Of a DNA stretch of 64,000 nt, positions 44,047 through 51,524 are shown piece after piece. The position numbers were made by a program, and so were the translations under genes. The first letter of the stretch is position 1; every line of letters starts with the position of its first letter. Under the pieces are notes generated by a model, which saw only the letters and a list, made by a program, of their open reading frames with translations, was not told the DNA's origin and ran no database searches. The stretch is from Escherichia coli (GTDB taxonomy: Bacteria > Pseudomonadota > Gammaproteobacteria > Enterobacterales > Enterobacteriaceae), in the NCBI RefSeq assembly GCF_030013595.1, contig NZ_CP122768.1; one strand, written 5' to 3'.

Positions 44047-44072
44047 CGTATAGCTTAACGTGTAGCTAAAAA
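44047..44072. repeat. 26-nt direct repeat (candidate integrase arm-type site), distal copy
   Basis: CGTATAGCTTAACGTGTAGCTAAAAA differs by 1 nt from CGTATAGCTAAACGTGTAGCTAAAAA at 54028-54053. Confidence 0.6.
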
Positions 44073-44622: not shown

Positions 44623-44853
44623 TTAGTTCATGAGGTTAGTCGCTACCAGATGCGTCAATAGTTTTTTGCTATTAATAATCCCTCTTTTTCCATCGGGAGC
44701 TTTGCACTTGTCACTACCTGGTAACTCCTGGTGGCGTTCCTGTTGCAGCACAACGGAAACAGGCGCTGAACACCTGTTAATTTTGCTTGCAGGTTGTTTG
44801 ATTTCGGCAATGCTGCGGATCATCTCCAGCATATCGGCTTCGGTGATGGTCAT
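44623..44853 (-). CDS. hypothetical small protein (76 aa)
   Basis: The ORF is preceded by an AAGGTG Shine-Dalgarno 6 nt from the ATG. I recognise no family, and it lies in an otherwise ORF-poor region. Confidence 0.35.
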   Translation of the reverse strand: MTITEADMLEMIRSIAEIKQPASKINRCSAPVSVVLQQERHQELPGSDKCKAPDGKRGIINSKKLLTHLVATNLMN

Positions 44854-44884: not shown

Positions 44885-45142
44885 TTGACACTTTCCGGCT
44901 TAAGACCTTAACAAATCTTAACATCGCAGGTTGACACACTTGACACTTTTTCGCGAAAAACCTTATCAAACCTTAGCATTTCTAAGCATGGCAACTTGAC
45001 ACTTTTCGCGATTTTTTCGGCTTTTTGACGTGGTAAATCTGGCGCAAAGCCAGTAACGGCGGGGTTTACAGCGAGGTTGACACTTTTTCGCGTTCAGAGT
45101 GTAAAGTGTCAACCTGGCAAGCTGCTCAACTTGACACTTTTT
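44885..45142. repeat. iteron array TTGACACTTT(TT)CGCG (at least 6 direct copies plus 1 inverted)
   Basis: Copies start at 44885, 44931, 44940, 44996, 45077 and 45131, with one inverted copy at 45103-45112. They are interspersed with CCTTA(G/A/T) repeats and lie between the Nu1-like gene and the 76-aa ORF. Confidence 0.8.
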
Positions 45143-45146
45143 GAGG

Positions 45147-45674
45147 TCATTGATGGCCTGATTTTTCCCACTCAGCCAGGGCGTTTAGTCCGGCTTCACT
45201 CCAGTTATCCAGCTCATCGGGACAATCACCTGCAACATAGCAGAGCTCACAACGCAGCATACGAATTGCCAGCCTGGCATTTTCCCGAAAATCATACTGC
45301 TCAAAGTAATATTGCCCAGCATAATCCTCAAGGCAGATAGCACCATCATCAAGAAATTGCACTTCACAGCATAGTTCCCCGGCTGCATCCTGTACACGCT
45401 GCTGTATGTCATTGTCCGTTACTGGTGCAGGGATTTTACCGTCTCTGGCCTTAACTGCTTTCCAGAACTCGCCCCACGTCATTTCCAGCGTTCTCTCTGG
45501 CCACATTTCAGAAACGGTATCTTTTCCCTGTGCTGGTGGGCTGTTCCGCTGCTCTGTCGCTTCCACATCGATTTTTTTACCGGACATGACCACTTCGCCT
45601 TTCTCGATCCAGTCGTAAACTGTCTGGCGGCTTACGCCTTTGTGTTTGGCATATTCTGCCTTGCTCATAAACAT
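45147..45674 (-). CDS. protein with a lambda Nu1 (small terminase)-like N-terminal HTH; candidate packaging-specificity factor
   Basis: 175 aa. The N-terminus SKAEYAKHKGVSRQTVYDWIEKGEV resembles lambda Nu1 NKKQLADIFGASIRTIQNWQEQGMPV. The rest is unrecognised and Cys-rich. A good Shine-Dalgarno (GAGGGGAAG) precedes the start. Confidence 0.55.
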   Translation of the reverse strand: MFMSKAEYAKHKGVSRQTVYDWIEKGEVVMSGKKIDVEATEQRNSPPAQGKDTVSEMWPERTLEMTWGEFWKAVKARDGKIPAPVTDNDIQQRVQDAAGELCCEVQFLDDGAICLEDYAGQYYFEQYDFRENARLAIRMLRCELCYVAGDCPDELDNWSEAGLNALAEWEKSGHQ

Positions 45675-47561: not shown

Positions 47562-47849
47562 TCACTGACTGCAATTTTTCGATCCAGGGTATTTCCTGAA
47601 TGCCTTACCATTGGGCTGATGTAATCCCATCCCGGCATGTGCCCGGCTGATGGTTTCGCGCATTTCCCCGAAATTATCCTGCCTTGCTGGTGGGCGTGCT
47701 GCCTTGCGGATACATTCCGCGCGACGTTTTGCCGCCTGTTCCCGTGCCTTGTCATCATTCGCCAGCATGATGACCTCAGCCCACCGCGCCGCCGCTCTCC
47801 GGTACAGACCACGCGCTTCCAGTGCTTCCGCTTTGCTGTCGTGAATCAT
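47562..47849 (-). CDS. PerC/Pch-like transcriptional regulator
   Basis: 95 aa. The N-terminal AEALEARGLYRRAAARWAEV matches the PerC-family signature as I recall it. Its start overlaps the upstream gene's stop by 4 nt. Confidence 0.55.
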   Translation of the reverse strand: MIHDSKAEALEARGLYRRAAARWAEVIMLANDDKAREQAAKRRAECIRKAARPPARQDNFGEMRETISRAHAGMGLHQPNGKAFRKYPGSKNCSQ

Positions 47850-48388
47850 GCGCCTGTTTTCTCCTTTGCTGCCCGGCGCTGACGTTTGCGCTTCTCATTC
47901 AGCGCCACCAGCCGCGTTTCTGCGTCCTGTTGTTCCTGTGGTGTCACCTCGCCGCACGGCTGGCCTTTCAGGTCGTAGCGTACCCCACCAGCCATTAAGG
48001 CGCGGTAATAGCGCGGACACTGCGCATAAGATGCCAGCGTCGCACGCAATGCCCCTGGACCGAATGCCAGCCCCCTGACGGCGAGATCCTGCATCAGGTC
48101 GTCGAATATCCCCACCTTAAGCGGCTTCGGTGCTTCCCGGCTGAATAATTCAGGCCACAACTCAGTGAGGCGGTTAACGCGCCTGCGGTTTTTGCGCTGG
48201 CGTTTGGTCATATGCCGCCACGGTGTCGCCCCTGTGGGCTTCTGCTGCGCTTTCTGGTTACCGGGCATCACTTTATGCGCCGATGTGGTTTTATCCTGCT
48301 CCTGCGCCGCCTGCGTCGTTTTCTGCGGCGTGCCGTAAATGCCTTTCGGTTTTCTGTTAATGGTCAGCTTAGTCATGCTTTGCCCCAT
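47846..48388 (-). CDS. FinO/ProQ-domain RNA-binding protein
   Basis: 180 aa. KPLKVGIFDDL ... LRATLASYAQCPRYYRAL..GGVRYDLKGQPCGEV aligns with E. coli ProQ RPLKIGIFQDL ... [35 protein letters not shown]. Both the N- and C-terminal tails are basic. Confidence 0.8.
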   Translation of the reverse strand: MGQSMTKLTINRKPKGIYGTPQKTTQAAQEQDKTTSAHKVMPGNQKAQQKPTGATPWRHMTKRQRKNRRRVNRLTELWPELFSREAPKPLKVGIFDDLMQDLAVRGLAFGPGALRATLASYAQCPRYYRALMAGGVRYDLKGQPCGEVTPQEQQDAETRLVALNEKRKRQRRAAKEKTGA

Positions 48389-48537
48389 CGTTTTTACTGG
48401 TTGCTACGTTGCCCAACGGCACTGACACAACATTCTGTTTTCATTTTTAACATTCCTGATTTTTTAATTCCTCACCTGCTGCACAGTGAAAATTTATGAA
48501 GTTAATAACAATATGATTTTAAATGTATTTTTAAGTA

Positions 48538-48856
48538 CTCACTTTTTAATCCTTATATATACGCAAAAGTGAGGTAAATAGTTAAGTTTTAGTTAATATC
48601 TTGCATGGTGTGTTTTTTAACCTACCTGTTATTTTTATTACCTCATTTCTATTAACTCACCATTCCTCACTTTTGTTCCTCACTTTTTATTATTCTTGTT
48701 CTGCTCCTCAGTCGTTTTCTTTATTGTTGTAATCTGTTGTTTTGCAATGTGTTTTTAACTCCTCACTTTTTGACCTATATACAGGTGAGAAAGTGAGGAG
48801 TGGCGTTGATTTTTTGTTAAATTACCCGCCATCCTCACTTTTGCTCCTCACTTTTT
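48538..48856. repeat. iteron array CCTCACTTTT(T) in AT-rich DNA: candidate island replication origin
   Basis: Direct copies lie at 48538, 48665, 48678, 48761, 48833 and 48846. Inverted copies lie at 48565-48574 and 48789-48800, and there are degenerate copies as well. The array is immediately downstream of the helicase gene. Confidence 0.75.
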
Positions 48857-50270
48857 ACAGTGGGCGCACATAATCACCGTCAATAGCGATTACGCCGTCG
48901 CTTTCCAGCTTGTACAGCCAGCGCCGGAAGTGTTTCATCTCATACCCCAGCTTTTTCATATCATCGCGGAGAAGGGCGATAGTGCACGCCTCCCCGTGTG
49001 CTGTTCGCGTTCTGATGCACTGCCATAGCGCAGCGTGATTTTCCGTCTTGTTCCCGGCCTCCTCGATGCGTTCCAGTTCAACAGGTGGGCGCGGCTTATC
49101 CACAACCACCAGCGACGTGATTAACTCCCCGTCAGTGTCGGTAAAAAGCTCCACCACGCGTAAATCATATGCAGCCTCTTTCAGTTCCTCCGCGTCCTTC
49201 ATTTTGGTGCAGGAGATAACCAGGGCTTCACTGTCCGCACCTTCACGGCGAATACGGTATTCAGCGTCCAGAGATGCACGAAATGCACTGGAACCACGCG
49301 CCCCTTTTGTTTCATCCTTGCCGGAATGGTGAACCACCAGTACCGTGGCCCCTGTGCGTCGTTTCAGTTCGTCACATCCACGGATAAACGCCCCCATATC
49401 CCGCGCGTCATTTTCATCATTACCGCCAAAGCAACGCGCCAGCGTATCCAGAATAATCATGCGTACCGGTTTACCCGTTTCCCGTTCAACCTGACGGGAA
49501 GCGATGACCATTTCATCAACATCAAGCGGGACCGCCGGAAAAATCGGGCGGTTTACCAGGTACAGATTTTTCACCCGTTCATCATTAACGATTTCCCATG
49601 CTTTGATACGACGAGGAACACCGATCCCGCCCTCACCAACGACATACATAACCGCACCATGTACAACCCTGCGACCTCCCCAGTGGCGACCAGTGGCAAC
49701 ATGACACGCCCAGGAACACGCGAGGAACGATTTATAGGAACCGCTCGCGCCGTATGTGCTGCACAACGAATTAGCCGGAATCACGCCCTTAACGACATAA
49801 TCAAGCTGTGTGTCGTATCCTGCAGATCCAATACTCATTGGTAGCGTGGTTTTTCGCTGGCTGTATTGCTCGTCAGTAAGTATTTCCCCGCGCTCTGCCT
49901 GTTCGCGGATCCGTTGCAGGTAGTCGTGCCAGTTCTCCAGCTTCTGGCTGTGCATTCCCTCAGGGTAATAATTCGCATCCCGTACACCTGCCGCCGCCAG
50001 TTTTTGCCCGATGGCATTAATATTTGACGGCTTGATGTGGCCTGCCTTGTACAGCCGGACACAATAGCGACCATCGTCGATAATTTTCAGGTCTGCCAGT
50101 TCGTCAAGCTGGCTGTCTCCCAGCCATACAGGCGGAACATTGTCGCCAGCAAGTCGCCCGTCCTGTTCCTGCCATTGTTTCGCGTGCGCCCAGGCATCAC
50201 TACCCGCAAAAATAATGACTTCGGTCATTTTGTCGTGTGGCTGTTTTTTTAAGTTCGGTGCCAGTTTCAT
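48855..50270 (-). CDS. RepA/AAA_25-type replicative helicase-like initiator
   Basis: 471 aa with a RecA-fold core: Walker A-like GASGSYKS, Walker B MIILD and an HHSGK motif. The C-terminus is wHTH-like. It is translationally coupled to the upstream ORF. Confidence 0.7.
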   Translation of the reverse strand: MKLAPNLKKQPHDKMTEVIIFAGSDAWAHAKQWQEQDGRLAGDNVPPVWLGDSQLDELADLKIIDDGRYCVRLYKAGHIKPSNINAIGQKLAAAGVRDANYYPEGMHSQKLENWHDYLQRIREQAERGEILTDEQYSQRKTTLPMSIGSAGYDTQLDYVVKGVIPANSLCSTYGASGSYKSFLACSWACHVATGRHWGGRRVVHGAVMYVVGEGGIGVPRRIKAWEIVNDERVKNLYLVNRPIFPAVPLDVDEMVIASRQVERETGKPVRMIILDTLARCFGGNDENDARDMGAFIRGCDELKRRTGATVLVVHHSGKDETKGARGSSAFRASLDAEYRIRREGADSEALVISCTKMKDAEELKEAAYDLRVVELFTDTDGELITSLVVVDKPRPPVELERIEEAGNKTENHAALWQCIRTRTAHGEACTIALLRDDMKKLGYEMKHFRRWLYKLESDGVIAIDGDYVRPL

Positions 50271-50566
50271 TTTGTGCCCCTGAATGCGTTAATCATGTTT
50301 TTCATTTTCTGAATATTTGCCCGTGCCTTTGCGTTGCTGGTGGGCTGTTTGCGTGGTGTGGCCTGTATCAGTGAAAAATCACGCCGGAACTGATAAACAG
50401 GCATCACGCAGTCGTAGCTGTACCCATCACGGCGGTAAGTAACGCACCGTCCGGCAATACTTTTAATCGTTACCGTGCCGCCGTAGTTATCCCGGAAAAT
50501 ATCGCCGGGGCGGATTTCAGGCCGAGGGAGACCACTGGCAGTAAAGCCAGAATTTTTCTTTTTCAT
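50267..50566 (-). CDS. hypothetical protein (99 aa)
   Basis: The ORF overlaps the rep start by 4 nt. I could not confidently recognise a family. Confidence 0.5.
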   Translation of the reverse strand: MKKKNSGFTASGLPRPEIRPGDIFRDNYGGTVTIKSIAGRCVTYRRDGYSYDCVMPVYQFRRDFSLIQATPRKQPTSNAKARANIQKMKNMINAFRGTK

Positions 50567-50771: not shown

Positions 50772-51129
50772 GATTCACCCCCTGAATAACCTGATAACCG
50801 CAACTGGTCAGCAATTCGATAAATTCCGGCAGTGTTCCGAAACAGCAATCATCTCGCAGCCGTTCTCGGGATACTTCAACGCCGTTTTCGTAGTGACTCA
50901 CCATGCGTCCGGTAAAATGCAGATCATCATCGTGATGGCTCGTTAACGGCTTAATCAGTCGCGCACGTTCTGCCAGCTCCAGCAATGCTTCAACGCTTCC
51001 GGCAATTGCACCATCCGGCAGGTGATAATTACTTGCCACGCGTCCATTCTCCACGTTAACCAGTAGCTGCCCGGTGAATTTCTCATCAAACTGAATGCTG
51101 TTAAGGTCAGAAATTGACAGGTTAATCAT
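50764..51129 (-). CDS. hypothetical protein carrying two tandem copies of the FTG(R/Q) module (121 aa)
   Basis: Internal duplication: FTGQLLVNVENGRV...AGSVEALLEL and FTGRMVSHYENGVEV...FGTLPEFIEL. It overlaps both neighbouring genes by 8 nt. Confidence 0.55.
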   Translation of the reverse strand: MINLSISDLNSIQFDEKFTGQLLVNVENGRVASNYHLPDGAIAGSVEALLELAERARLIKPLTSHHDDDLHFTGRMVSHYENGVEVSRERLRDDCCFGTLPEFIELLTSCGYQVIQGVNHG

Positions 51130-51325
51130 GGCGTACCTCCTGGCGAATACGGGCAGCGAATACCATCACGCAGCCATCAGGAGATTGCTGACGCGCTTCC
51201 TGTTCGCTGGTGGCCTCAATGGTAATCACGCGCGGTTGTGCCGTGCTCAGGGCGATAAAACGCCAGATGTATTTATTCAGGTTGTGCGAGTCCCGCCCTT
51301 GCGGGTGTGTGGTATGATTTCTCAT
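51122..51325 (-). CDS. Icd-like small protein (67 aa)
   Basis: This is the 3' third of the 286-aa ORF-track entry, starting at MRNHTTHPQGRDSH. The segment YIWRFIALS...IEATSEQEARQQSP.GCVMVFAARIRQE resembles proteins annotated as host cell division inhibitor Icd-like in satellite islands. That match is from memory only. Confidence 0.5.
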   Translation of the reverse strand: MRNHTTHPQGRDSHNLNKYIWRFIALSTAQPRVITIEATSEQEARQQSPDGCVMVFAARIRQEVRHD

Positions 51326-51422
51326 AGCTACCTCGATACTCTTTCTATCGTTGGTGGTTAGAAGCCCCGTTACTGCTCCAACAGTGCGGGGTTTCGTCGT
51401 TTCTGTGCCTTGCATTAACAAG

Positions 51423-51504
51423 GTGTAAGACACAATGTAAAATACAAGTGTCTTACACGTCAAGCCTTCAAAATAATTTTTTTTCGTGTATATTGTCTTA
51501 CACC
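51423..51504. promoter_or_regulatory. operator-like repeats in the divergent control region
   Basis: GTGTAAGACAC (51423-51433) and its exact inverted copy GTGTCTTACAC (51448-51458) are joined by a third copy, GTCTTACACC (51495-51504). They lie between the Icd-like operon and the plus-strand RHH-like gene. Confidence 0.6.
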
Positions 51505-51524
51505 AACAACATAAGGAGTTAGAC

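What the first reader, a model, noticed from the sequence alone, without database searches (positions are those of the whole stretch)
48389..48856. AT-rich iteron region downstream of rep: candidate island origin
About 470 nt without ORFs carry six or more direct and two inverted copies of CCTCACTTT(T/TT), plus degenerate copies, at irregular spacing in very AT-rich DNA. The last copy overlaps the rep stop codon.

The order rep followed by an iteron ori is the arrangement described for SaPI/PICI replication modules. The inverted copies (48565-48574 and 48789-48800) bracket the densest cluster and could define the melting region.
Basis: partly seen in the sequence, partly recalled or inferred. 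Interest (0 to 1): 0.5.

Follow-up and report, generated by a model that had tools for sequence, protein, structure and literature searches.

The report
Phage-satellite island replication origin
The repeat-filled, AT-rich stretch just after the island's helicase gene is very probably the replication origin of a 10-kb phage-parasitic island (PICI) in E. coli, a kind of origin already described, but in this copy the helicase's DNA-reading residue does not match its own repeats.

Summary
CCTCACTTT occurs 7 times in 64 kb, against 0.33 expected, and all copies lie in 48566-48854. GC falls to about 0.26, and the last copy overlaps the rep stop codon.

The region sits in a 10-kb PICI-type island (int, alpA, DUF4222, rep, ProQ/FinO, PerC) between yejO and tRNA-Pro/yejM. 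Only the rep-proximal ~200 bp (48655-48856) is a conserved module. It has three direct iterons, a T-rich spacer, an inverted iteron pair around TATATAC, a second spacer, and three direct iterons ending at the stop codon. The distal half (48441-48654) is a decayed tandem copy of this module.

The same architecture follows Rep homologues in about 170 loci across Enterobacterales. Within a locus all copies change together. Rep is a RepA/SF4-type helicase with a C-terminal winged helix. The residue capping its recognition helix tracks the variable iteron base: Asn with T, His or Lys with C, Ser with G.

The window is the only exception found with an intact Rep, pairing His447 with T-type iterons. 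Iteron origins after rep were already published for E. coli PICIs, so this is a new member of a known kind. Nothing here was tested experimentally.

The parts
48855..50270 (-). rep: 471-aa initiator-helicase. It has an N-terminal ~130-aa module, a RepA/DnaB-like (AAA_25) ATPase core and a C-terminal winged helix.
   Evidence: ORF found. Pfam AAA_25 matches at E 2e-44 over residues 152-320. The full length matches phrog_2850. There is a weak sequence match to RSF1010 RepA, PDB 1g8y. The Walker A motif (GASGSYKS), Walker B motif (ILDTLARC), the HH motif and an Arg are invariant in alignment A3.
48858..49058 (-). Coding region of the C-terminal winged-helix domain (residues 405-471), the predicted iteron reader.
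   Evidence: The AF2 model has pLDDT 93-96 with a helix-helix-helix-strand-strand (H-H-H-beta-beta) topology. All Foldseek PDB hits are winged-helix DNA-binding domains: DtxR/IdeR, PcaR, LexA, histone H1 and archaeal ORC2 (TM 0.74). Probabilities are 0.9-0.99 but E-values are only 0.05-0.3.
48930..48932 (-). Codon 447 (CAC, His), the N-cap of the predicted recognition helix. This position covaries with the variable iteron base across the family, and it is atypical in this window.
   Evidence: Asn goes with T, His or Lys with C, and Ser with G. The same island in ETEC6335 differs in Rep only by N447.
48824..48856 (+). Proximal iteron cluster: a degenerate copy at 48824-48830, CCTCACTTTT at 48833-48842 and CCTCACTTTTT at 48846-48856. 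Spacing is 10 and 13 bp. The last copy overlaps the rep stop codon.
48758..48801 (.). Central palindrome: iteron 48761-48771 (+), TATATAC core at 48776-48782, inverted half copy 48783-48789 and inverted iteron 48790-48798. This is the candidate site for head-to-head helicase loading or first melting.
   Evidence: Inverted repeat I3 has 22-nt arms that are 86% complementary. The TATA(T)AC core and the arm distance are conserved across genera. The distance is 31 bp in 13 E. coli loci and 29 bp in 23 loci of other genera.
48689..48757 (.). T-rich spacer with a half iteron (48702-48710) and a motif like the oriC 13-mer, AATCTGTTGTTTT (48731-48743). This is the candidate unwinding element of the conserved module.
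   Evidence: The TGTTTT and T-run columns are invariant in alignment A1. The 13-mer match has one mismatch. Duplex stability here is moderately low.
48655..48688 (+). Distal iteron cluster: ACTCACC at 48655-48661, CCTCACTTTT at 48665-48674 and CCTCACTTTTT at 48678-48688. It is a 26-nt near-duplicate of the proximal cluster, 168 bp away.
   Evidence: Family D2 is 96% identical with a spacing of 168 bp.
48441..48654 (.). Degenerate second origin module. It has decayed iterons (48468-48478, 48640-48650) and a second palindrome at 48537-48574, ACTCACTTTTT..TATATATAC..AAAAGTGAGG. The least stable duplex of the region lies at 48490-48560.
   Evidence: It aligns colinearly with 48667-48820 at score 82. 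Shuffles give 29.2 +/- 4.6 with a maximum of 44. It is present in only about 19 of 5426 E. coli genomes, whereas the proximal module is in 322.
50267..50566 (-). DUF4222 gene, always found directly upstream of rep in this island family.
   Evidence: Pfam DUF4222. The synteny holds.
47846..48388 (-). ProQ/FinO-family gene, the first gene after the origin. This position is variable in relatives.
   Evidence: Pfam ProQ matches at E 8e-24. Relatives carry an 83-aa ORF plus SSB here instead.
52721..53962 (-). Tyrosine integrase of the island.
   Evidence: Pfam Phage_integrase, Phage_int_M and Arm-DNA-bind_3.
51987..52193 (-). AlpA-family regulator.
   Evidence: Pfam PF05930 scores 33.3 bits against a cutoff of 21.
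44047..44072 (+). Left att repeat of the island, on the yejO side.
   Evidence: A 26-nt direct repeat matching at 25 of 26 positions lies 9981 bp from its partner. The yejO and yejM flanks are confirmed in ETEC6335.
54028..54053 (+). Right att repeat, next to int and 120 bp from tRNA-Pro(GGG) at 54172-54248.

Best explanation
The region is the vegetative replication origin of a 10-kb PICI-type phage satellite integrated between yejO and tRNA-Pro/yejM.

The working unit is the ~200-bp module 48655-48856. It has two clusters of three direct 9-11-bp iterons (C-C-T-C-A-C-T-T-T-T) spaced one helical turn apart. Between them lie a T-rich spacer and an inverted iteron pair around a TATATAC core.

Inferred mechanism: after induction, Rep is made from the gene that ends inside the last iteron. 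Rep is a RepA/DnaB-like hexameric helicase. Its C-terminal winged-helix domains bind the iterons, with residue 447 at the start of the recognition helix reading the variable third base. Binding to the two flanking clusters and the central palindrome concentrates and orients Rep, so that the duplex opens at the TATATAC core or the T-rich spacer. The helicase then loads itself without DnaA.

The distal 48441-48654 is a decayed tandem copy of the module. It supplies the most easily melted DNA but is dispensable in most relatives.

Shown here: the repeats, their clustering, the conserved geometry, the concerted change of copies, the protein-DNA covariation and the predicted fold. Inferred: binding, melting, helicase loading and firing.
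For: 1. Enrichment and clustering. There are 7 exact copies against 0.33 expected, all within 290 bp.

2. Island context. The island carries int, AlpA, DUF4222, rep, PerC and att repeats next to tRNA-Pro. The same island is annotated at yejO/yejM in ETEC6335.

3. Conserved columns. In 10 E. coli modules the invariant columns are the C.CACTTTT cores, while the spacers diverge.

4. Homogeneity within loci. In 16 E. coli loci every detected copy carries the same variable base. Ten loci are all T and six are all C.

5. Rep homologues elsewhere. In 68 of 77 loci from other Enterobacterales and one Oceanospirillaceae genome, a 7-mer is repeated at least 4 times in the 260 bp after rep. In 63 of 77 this exceeds every other window of the locus. 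The architecture and distances are the same: palindrome arms 29-31 bp apart, 84-85 bp from palindrome to last iteron, 12-13 bp between neighbours.

6. Iterons follow the Rep type, not the island backbone. EcCICFT073 has the same DUF4222 and the same Rep N-terminal module (62% identical over 134 aligned residues). Its helicase and C-terminus are different, and its iterons are GGTAGAYA.

7. The C-terminus is a confidently predicted winged helix.

8. Residue 447 covaries with the base before CAC.
   - Asn with T in 26/26 loci, Lys with C in 26/26, Ser with G in 8/8, and His with C in 11/12, the one exception being the window itself.
   - In 80 further IMG/VR loci tested after the rule was derived: His with C in 40/40 and Asn with T in 40/40.
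   - Three N447/CCTCAC loci (L093, L094, L096) and two H447/CCCCAC loci (L095, L002) have 75-aa winged helices that are otherwise identical.

9. An episomal relative. The circular 16,971-bp K. pneumoniae 'plasmid' pKp_Goe_795-4 is such an island. It has this Rep type, a GCCGCAC iteron origin and no other typed replicon.

10. Literature. E. coli PICIs have their ori 3' of the replication gene with this organisation. The pri-ori segment of EcCICFT073 supported replication of a temperature-sensitive vector (PMC6092414). SaPI Reps bind iterons through a C-terminal winged helix (PMC9371898).
Against: - There is no experiment for this Rep type. The tested PICI replicon (EcCICFT073) uses an unrelated helicase domain and different iterons.
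- This window's Rep has His447, which pairs with C-type iterons in all 52 other intact loci, yet its iterons are T-type. Its own origin may therefore be poorly recognised.
- The exact protein is not on record in a 153-billion-gene index.
- The most AT-rich DNA lies in the non-conserved distal half, not in the conserved module.
- Fold-search E-values for the 77-aa domain are weak, at 0.05-0.3. The full-length model is poor, with mean pLDDT 64.5.
- Rep and the origin are physically linked, so part of the covariation could reflect shared descent.
Confidence: 0.82

Rival explanations
1. The module is an origin by descent, but in this particular island it is mismatched with its own Rep. The N447H change shifts Rep's preference towards CCCCAC iterons. 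The island would then replicate poorly, or depend on a co-resident island's Rep, or act in trans on C-type origins.
For: His447 pairs with C-type iterons in 52 of 52 other intact loci, and Asn447 with T-type in all 71 counted loci that carry it. The same island in ETEC6335 differs in Rep only by N447. The exact H447 protein is not on record in the public gene index. The only other H447/T-type case is a truncated rep pseudogene in strain cq9.
Against: The specificity of His at this position has not been measured. The wing residue Tyr467 and Ser459 are particular to this sub-lineage and could compensate. All Rep ATPase motifs are intact, and the island is otherwise complete.
Confidence: 0.3
2. 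The repeats are operator or copy-control sites, not the site of initiation. They could serve Rep autoregulation or handcuffing, or act as a promoter array for the downstream ProQ/PerC operon.
For: Iterons in plasmids also serve autoregulation and handcuffing (established knowledge of iteron plasmids). The region lies between two co-directional genes.
Against: The scan found no sigma-70-like promoter or terminator. The downstream genes differ among relatives, while the module always abuts the rep stop codon. The conserved palindrome with its TATATAC core and T-rich spacer, and the conserved helical geometry, fit an unwinding site.
Confidence: 0.06
3. The repeats are a packaging signal (a pac or cos-like site) recognised by a small terminase or a redirecting protein.
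For: PICIs carry cos or pac sites (PMC6092414). Repeat arrays are typical of terminase-binding sites.
Against: The repeat sequence tracks the Rep winged helix and the Rep type, not the packaging genes. Those genes vary from none to full capsid modules among loci with the same module. A separate repeat array lies near the island end, at 44885-45140.
Confidence: 0.03
4. The region encodes a small RNA, for example a partner of the adjacent ProQ/FinO-family protein. On this reading the palindromes are RNA hairpins.
For: A ProQ/FinO gene follows directly. The palindromes could fold as hairpins.
Against: No Rfam family reaches threshold. The only hits are hairpin-like miRNA models far below their gathering scores. 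The module is equally conserved in relatives that lack the ProQ gene. The palindrome arms are simply iterons that change with all the other copies. There is no promoter or terminator.
Confidence: 0.03

Closest known systems
Replication origins of Gram-negative PICIs (EcCI elements; Fillol-Salom et al. 2018, PMC6092414)
   Same: It is the same island family. The gene order matches (int, alpA, icd-like, DUF4222, replication gene, ori, PerC). The insertion region (yejM) is the same as for EcCI11368.1, EcCIED1a.1, EcCIATCC25922 and EcCI11128. The ori lies immediately 3' of the replication gene, with two iteron sets and an AT-rich part. EcCI11368.1 (L007) and EcCIDi14 (L002) carry the same Rep type and the same module, with CCCCAC iterons.
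   Different: The replicon tested experimentally (EcCICFT073) has a 584-aa primase-family Pri-Rep. It shares only the N-terminal ~130 aa with this Rep and uses GGTAGAYA iterons. The att core here differs from the one listed for the yejM site. This copy has an extra degenerate module and the H447/T-type combination.
SaPI Rep/ori (self-loading helicases Rep1, Rep2, PriRep5; PMC9371898)
   Same: The initiator is itself the helicase. A C-terminal winged helix recognises short repeats that start right after the rep ORF. There is an AT-rich part within the origin, and no DnaA boxes are needed.
   Different: The ATPase core is RepA/DnaB-like (Pfam AAA_25, RecA fold), not SF3 or MCM-type AAA+. The flanking clusters point the same way, and opposite orientation is confined to one central palindrome. 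There is no sequence homology to the SaPI proteins.
RSF1010/IncQ RepA helicase with RepC-bound iterons
   Same: The helicase core belongs to the same Pfam family (AAA_25). PDB 1g8y is the only solved-structure sequence match.
   Different: In IncQ plasmids a separate protein (RepC) binds 20-22-bp iterons, and RepB' primes synthesis (established knowledge). Here iteron recognition appears fused to the helicase as a winged helix, and the iterons are 9-11 bp.
Satellite phage P4 alpha protein with ori and crr
   Same: It is a phage satellite whose single replication protein combines a helicase with a C-terminal origin-binding domain. That domain recognises short repeats (established knowledge; P4 is compared with PICIs in PMC6092414). 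A second repeat-bearing cis element (crr) loosely recalls the second module here.
   Different: P4 alpha is a primase fused to an SF3 helicase. Its repeats and origin layout differ. The second module here is a decayed tandem copy that most relatives lack.
Classical iteron plasmids (pSC101, P1, F, RK2, R6K)
   Same: Directly repeated initiator-binding sites lie next to an AT-rich unwinding region. Iteron and initiator specificity evolve together.
   Different: Those iterons are 17-22 bp. The origins carry DnaA boxes and often IHF sites, and the initiator is a two-winged-helix protein without helicase activity (established knowledge). Here there is no DnaA box, IHF site or GATC, and the initiator is a helicase.

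Membership tests
Gram-negative PICI (EcCI type) | Tyrosine integrase at one end and a specific attachment site with flanking direct repeats | tested here: met
   The integrase is at 52721-53962. The 26-nt direct repeats are at 44047 and 54028, 9981 bp apart. The island lies next to tRNA-Pro. The same island is annotated between yejO and yejM in ETEC6335.
Gram-negative PICI (EcCI type) | AlpA-family regulator downstream of int, with unidirectional transcription of the island genes | tested here: met
   PF05930 matches at 51987-52193. All island genes but one small ORF are on the minus strand.
Gram-negative PICI (EcCI type) | Replication gene followed immediately by an ori with two iteron sets and an AT-rich region | tested here: met
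   The definition comes from PMC6092414.
Gram-negative PICI (EcCI type) | Small size (about 8-15 kb) and no phage lysis or tail genes | tested here: met
   The island is 10.0 kb between its att repeats. The ORFs scanned gave only a DUF2213 match and a weak head-protease-like match. Not every small ORF was scanned.
Gram-negative PICI (EcCI type) | Induction by a helper phage, Rep-dependent replication and packaging in phage particles | not testable with these tools
   This needs induction, marker-frequency and transfer experiments.
SaPI-type Rep/ori | C-terminal winged-helix domain on the helicase-initiator | tested here: met
   The AF2 model has pLDDT 93-96. The Foldseek hits are winged-helix domains with probabilities of 0.9-0.99. 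The definition is in PMC9371898.
SaPI-type Rep/ori | Iterons start immediately downstream of the rep ORF | tested here: met
   The last iteron overlaps the stop codon here and in all 10 aligned E. coli modules.
SaPI-type Rep/ori | At least two iterons on each side of the AT-rich centre, pointing in opposite directions | tested here: not met
   Both flanking clusters have the same orientation. Opposite orientation occurs only within the central palindrome.
SaPI-type Rep/ori | ATPase of the SF3 or MCM (AAA+) class | tested here: not met
   Pfam AAA_25 (RepA/DnaB-like) matches at E 2e-44. The only PDB sequence match is RSF1010 RepA. The full-model fold search gave weak Rad51/RadA-like hits.
Classical iteron plasmid origin | Iterons of 17-22 bp bound by a Rep_3/TrfA-type initiator, with DnaA boxes in the origin | tested here: not met
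   The iterons are 9-11 bp. No DnaA box is found even with one mismatch allowed, and there is no IHF consensus. The initiator is a helicase.
IncQ (RSF1010) replicon | RepA-type hexameric helicase core | tested here: met
   AAA_25 and PDB 1g8y at E 0.005.
IncQ (RSF1010) replicon | Separate iteron-binding RepC and RepB' primase genes | tested here: not met
   No such genes turned up among the island ORFs scanned. DNA binding is predicted to sit on the helicase itself.

The most novel reading that the evidence does not exclude
One residue, the N-cap of the winged-helix recognition helix (position 447), sets which iteron variant this family of self-loading RepA-type helicases fires on. Asn reads T:A, His or Lys reads C:G, and Ser reads G:C. 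A single amino-acid change plus concerted change of about 8 iterons would then create a new origin-specificity (incompatibility) group of phage satellites. The window would be a natural intermediate or mismatch, pairing His447 with T-type iterons. It is one mutation away from its Asn447 sister island.
Probability: 0.5. Interest if true: 0.55.

Novelty: new member of a known kind. Interest (0 to 1): 0.33.

Why it matters
The origin is what lets a phage satellite amplify itself after induction, so locating it defines the island's replicon and its compatibility with co-resident islands.

The kind of feature is already published for E. coli PICIs, so the finding is mostly a correct annotation. What goes beyond it is a precise, conserved anatomy for the RepA-helicase type of PICI origin, which is widespread in Enterobacterales but has not been tested. 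There is also a simple, testable residue-to-base rule for Rep/ori specificity, and this window is the one natural exception. That gives a cheap experiment on how initiator-origin pairs diversify: swap Asn and His at 447, and swap T and C in the iterons.

Tried and rejected
- **Fold search of the full-length Rep model.** Mean pLDDT was 64.5 and no hit had E below 0.001. Only weak Rad51/RadA-like and unrelated Rossmann-like hits came up. I re-modelled the C-terminal 77 aa alone instead.
- **Pfam on the C-terminal 77 aa and the N-terminal 129 aa.** Nothing significant was found.
- **Rfam.** At E up to 1 on the region and at gathering score on the island, it returned only sub-threshold miRNA hairpin models on the palindrome and the tRNA. 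I rejected the sRNA reading.
- **Promoter and terminator scan.** None was found on the relevant strand.
- **DnaA box, IHF consensus and GATC.** None is present. The only hit is a one-mismatch resemblance to the oriC 13-mer, which I treat as suggestive.
- **Exact-protein look-up of the window's Rep.** It is not on record.
- **A single winged-helix determinant from the first 10 E. coli sequences.** It looked inconsistent because the window itself is the exception. This was resolved only with more loci.
- **Literature search for work on the RepA-type PICI origin.** It found nothing specific beyond PMC6092414.
I rejected it on the comparative anatomy.

Full report
**Observation**

The repeats are there and they are not chance. 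Exact CCTCACTTT occurs seven times in the 64-kb window, all between 48566 and 48854. Five copies are direct and two are inverted. One hundred dinucleotide-preserving shuffles gave a mean of 0.33 and never more than 3. A one-mismatch direct copy lies at 48537, and several degenerate copies bring the total to about 13. GC drops to 0.255-0.29 at 48400-48700. The last copy (48846-48856) overlaps the TAA stop of the 471-aa ORF at 48855-50270 on the minus strand. No ORF in the region is conserved. A 50-aa ORF annotated inside it in two RefSeq genomes is interrupted by a stop codon in the window.

**Context**

The region lies in a 10.0-kb island bounded by a 26-nt direct repeat (44047-44072 and 54028-54053). 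The island sits beside tRNA-Pro(GGG). The same island is annotated between yejO and yejM in E. coli ETEC6335.

All but one small gene run on the minus strand:
- a tyrosine integrase and AlpA;
- an Icd-like gene and DUF4222;
- the helicase gene, then the repeat region;
- ProQ/FinO, PerC and a DUF2213 protein.

This is the gene order of the Gram-negative PICIs (EcCI elements) of Fillol-Salom et al. 2018. Their Table S1 lists several EcCIs at the same yejM site. Two of my comparison loci are named elements of that paper: EcCI11368.1 (L007) and EcCIDi14 (L002).

**Anatomy**

A blastn search with the intergenic DNA alone found the rep-proximal ~200 bp (48656-48854) in 322 of 5426 complete E. coli genomes. 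The distal half occurs in only about 19.

I aligned ten E. coli modules. The invariant columns are the C.CACTTTT cores, while the spacers diverge. From the end farthest from rep, the module reads:
- three direct iterons at 48655, 48665 and 48678;
- a half copy at 48702;
- a T-rich spacer;
- a palindrome made of one direct and one inverted iteron around TATATAC (48758-48801);
- a ~30-bp spacer;
- three direct iterons at 48824, 48833 and 48846.

The two outer clusters are 26-nt near-duplicates, 168 bp apart.

The distal half (48441-48596) aligns colinearly with 48667-48820, at score 82 against 29.2 +/- 4.6 for shuffles. It contains its own palindrome at 48537-48574. It is therefore a decayed tandem copy of the module, not part of one large origin. 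It also holds the least stable duplex of the region, at 48490-48560.

**The repeats belong to Rep**

The ORF is a RepA/DnaB-like helicase. Pfam AAA_25 matches at E 2e-44, the only solved-structure sequence match is RSF1010 RepA, and the ATPase motifs are invariant.

A scan of one genome per species returned 80 loci, from Xenorhabdus, Serratia, Pectobacterium, Pantoea, Morganella, Kosakonia and others, plus one Oceanospirillaceae genome. In 68 of the 77 usable loci, a 7-mer is repeated at least four times in the 260 bp after the stop codon. In 63 loci that exceeds every other window of the locus.

The layout is the same everywhere, including the TATA(T)AC core between inverted iterons. The distances are also conserved:
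- palindrome arms 29-31 bp apart;
- 84-85 bp from the palindrome to the last iteron;
- 12-13 bp between neighbouring iterons.

The iteron sequence differs between lineages: CCTCAC, CCCCAC, CCCCCAC and GCCGCAC. It is uniform within each locus. In 16 E. coli loci every detected copy has the same variable base.

The island backbone does not determine the iteron. EcCICFT073 has the same DUF4222 gene and shares the first ~130 residues of its replication protein (62% identity). The rest of that protein is a primase-family protein, and its origin carries GGTAGAYA repeats. Strain cq9 has both cassettes in tandem, the second behind a truncated rep.

**How Rep probably reads the repeats**

The C-terminal 67 residues are predicted with pLDDT 93-96 as three helices followed by a beta-hairpin. 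Every good Foldseek match is a winged-helix DNA-binding domain. These include DtxR/IdeR, PcaR, LexA, histone H1 and archaeal ORC2 at TM 0.74. E-values for this short domain are only 0.05-0.3.

The residue just before the third helix (position 447, motif K-x-F-x-R-W) tracks the base preceding CAC. In 72 loci the counts were:

| Residue 447 | Base before CAC | Loci |
|---|---|---|
| Asn | T | 26/26 |
| Lys | C | 26/26 |
| Ser | G | 8/8 |
| His | C | 11/12 |

I derived the rule on those loci and then tested it on 80 IMG/VR loci. His went with C in 40/40 and Asn with T in 40/40. In E. coli, three N447/CCTCAC loci and two H447/CCCCAC loci have otherwise identical 75-aa domains. The pairings agree with common amino-acid-base preferences: Asn with adenine, and His or Lys with guanine. 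That last point rests on established knowledge, not on a test made here.

Rep and the origin are linked, so shared descent contributes to the association. The isogenic pairs and the recurrence in at least 12 domain clusters argue for a direct constraint.

**The window is the exception**

Its Rep has His447 with T-type iterons. The same island at the same site in ETEC6335 encodes a Rep that differs only by Asn447. UMNF18 and Z1323CEC0002 also have Asn with this origin. The exact H447 protein is absent from the public gene index. The only other H447/T-type case is the truncated rep remnant in cq9, whose DNA is 100% identical to the window over 48300-48950. The origin module is intact. Whether this Rep fires it efficiently is an open question.

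**Other evidence and rivals**

A circular 16,971-bp K. pneumoniae 'plasmid' (pKp_Goe_795-4) is an island of this kind. It has an integrase, capsid genes, this Rep type and a GCCGCAC iteron origin, and no other typed replicon. That is consistent with autonomous replication or at least amplification.

The region has no DnaA box, IHF consensus or GATC. It has one near-match to the oriC 13-mer in the conserved T-rich spacer. This fits a self-loading initiator.

I considered and rejected three other readings:
- **Promoter or terminator:** the scan found neither.
- **Small RNA:** no Rfam family matched.
- **Packaging site:** the repeats follow Rep, not the very variable packaging genes.

**Comparison with what is known**

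It works like a SaPI/PICI origin. A helicase-initiator with a C-terminal winged helix binds short repeats that begin at its own stop codon (PMC9371898; PMC6092414). It is a member of the EcCI class of PICIs.

It is not a member of the SaPI Rep families. The ATPase is RepA/DnaB-like rather than SF3 or MCM, and the flanking iterons are not in opposite orientation. It is not a classical iteron-plasmid origin either, because the iterons are short, there are no DnaA boxes and the initiator is a helicase.

**Verdict**

The finding is a correct identification of a known kind of element. It is a new member of that kind, with a refined anatomy. It also yields a testable specificity rule whose single natural exception among intact rep genes is this window.

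Noticed in passing
window 44885-45140: A second dense repeat array lies in the same island. There are six exact TTGACACTTT (five direct, one inverted at 45103-45112) plus TTGACACAC at 44931. They lie between a 175-aa ORF with a weak N-terminal HTH (45147-45674, minus strand) and a 76-aa ORF (44623-44853, minus strand). This is the only other cluster of this density in the 64 kb. It may be a packaging site or a regulator-binding array. It shares the CACTTTT tail with the ori iteron.
   Followed up: partly
window 49881-50270 (Rep residues 1-130): The N-terminal ~130 aa of Rep is a separate module. It is 62% identical to the N-terminus of the unrelated EcCICFT073 Pri-Rep. It also occurs at the N-terminus of DUF5906, DUF927 and P4-family primase proteins on plasmids, in most of the annotated cases next to a DUF4222 gene. 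Its function is unknown. It does not determine the iteron type.
   Followed up: partly
L001 14556-15280 (E. coli cq9); L013 (Xenorhabdus beddingii): Origins occur in tandem. In cq9 a primase-type rep with GGTAGAYA iterons is followed by a truncated RepA remnant with the CCTCAC origin. The Xenorhabdus locus has a CCCCAC-type palindrome module beyond its CCTCAC origin. This suggests that the rep 3' end plus ori moves as a recombination cassette.
   Followed up: partly
window 48680-48832 (-); L092 1881-2033; L097 1625-1777: RefSeq annotates a 50-aa 'hypothetical protein' (WP_001372362.1) inside the origin in UMNF18 and Z1323CEC0002. In the window the same frame carries a stop codon. The annotation is probably spurious.
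   Followed up: yes
L099 (CP018459.1, K. pneumoniae pKp_Goe_795-4, whole record): A 16,971-bp circular record deposited as a plasmid is a capsid-encoding PICI-like element. It has an integrase, terminase and capsid genes, a RepA-type rep and a GCCGCAC iteron origin, and no typed plasmid replicon.
   Followed up: partly
window 44047-44072 and 54028-54053; 53821-54210: The att repeat here is CGTATAGCT(T/A)AACGTGTAGCTAAAAA. It differs from the att core TTTGTAGTTATACG... listed for EcCIs at the yejM site. GTAGCTA is repeated four times around the int-proximal end, probably as integrase arm sites. This points to a different integrase/att allele at the same chromosomal location.
   Followed up: no
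window 51122-51982 (-): The mechanical ORF of 286 aa matches Icd-like and repressor families only in its last ~90 residues. RefSeq annotates shorter Icd-like genes here in relatives. The true start is probably far downstream of the first GTG.
   Followed up: no
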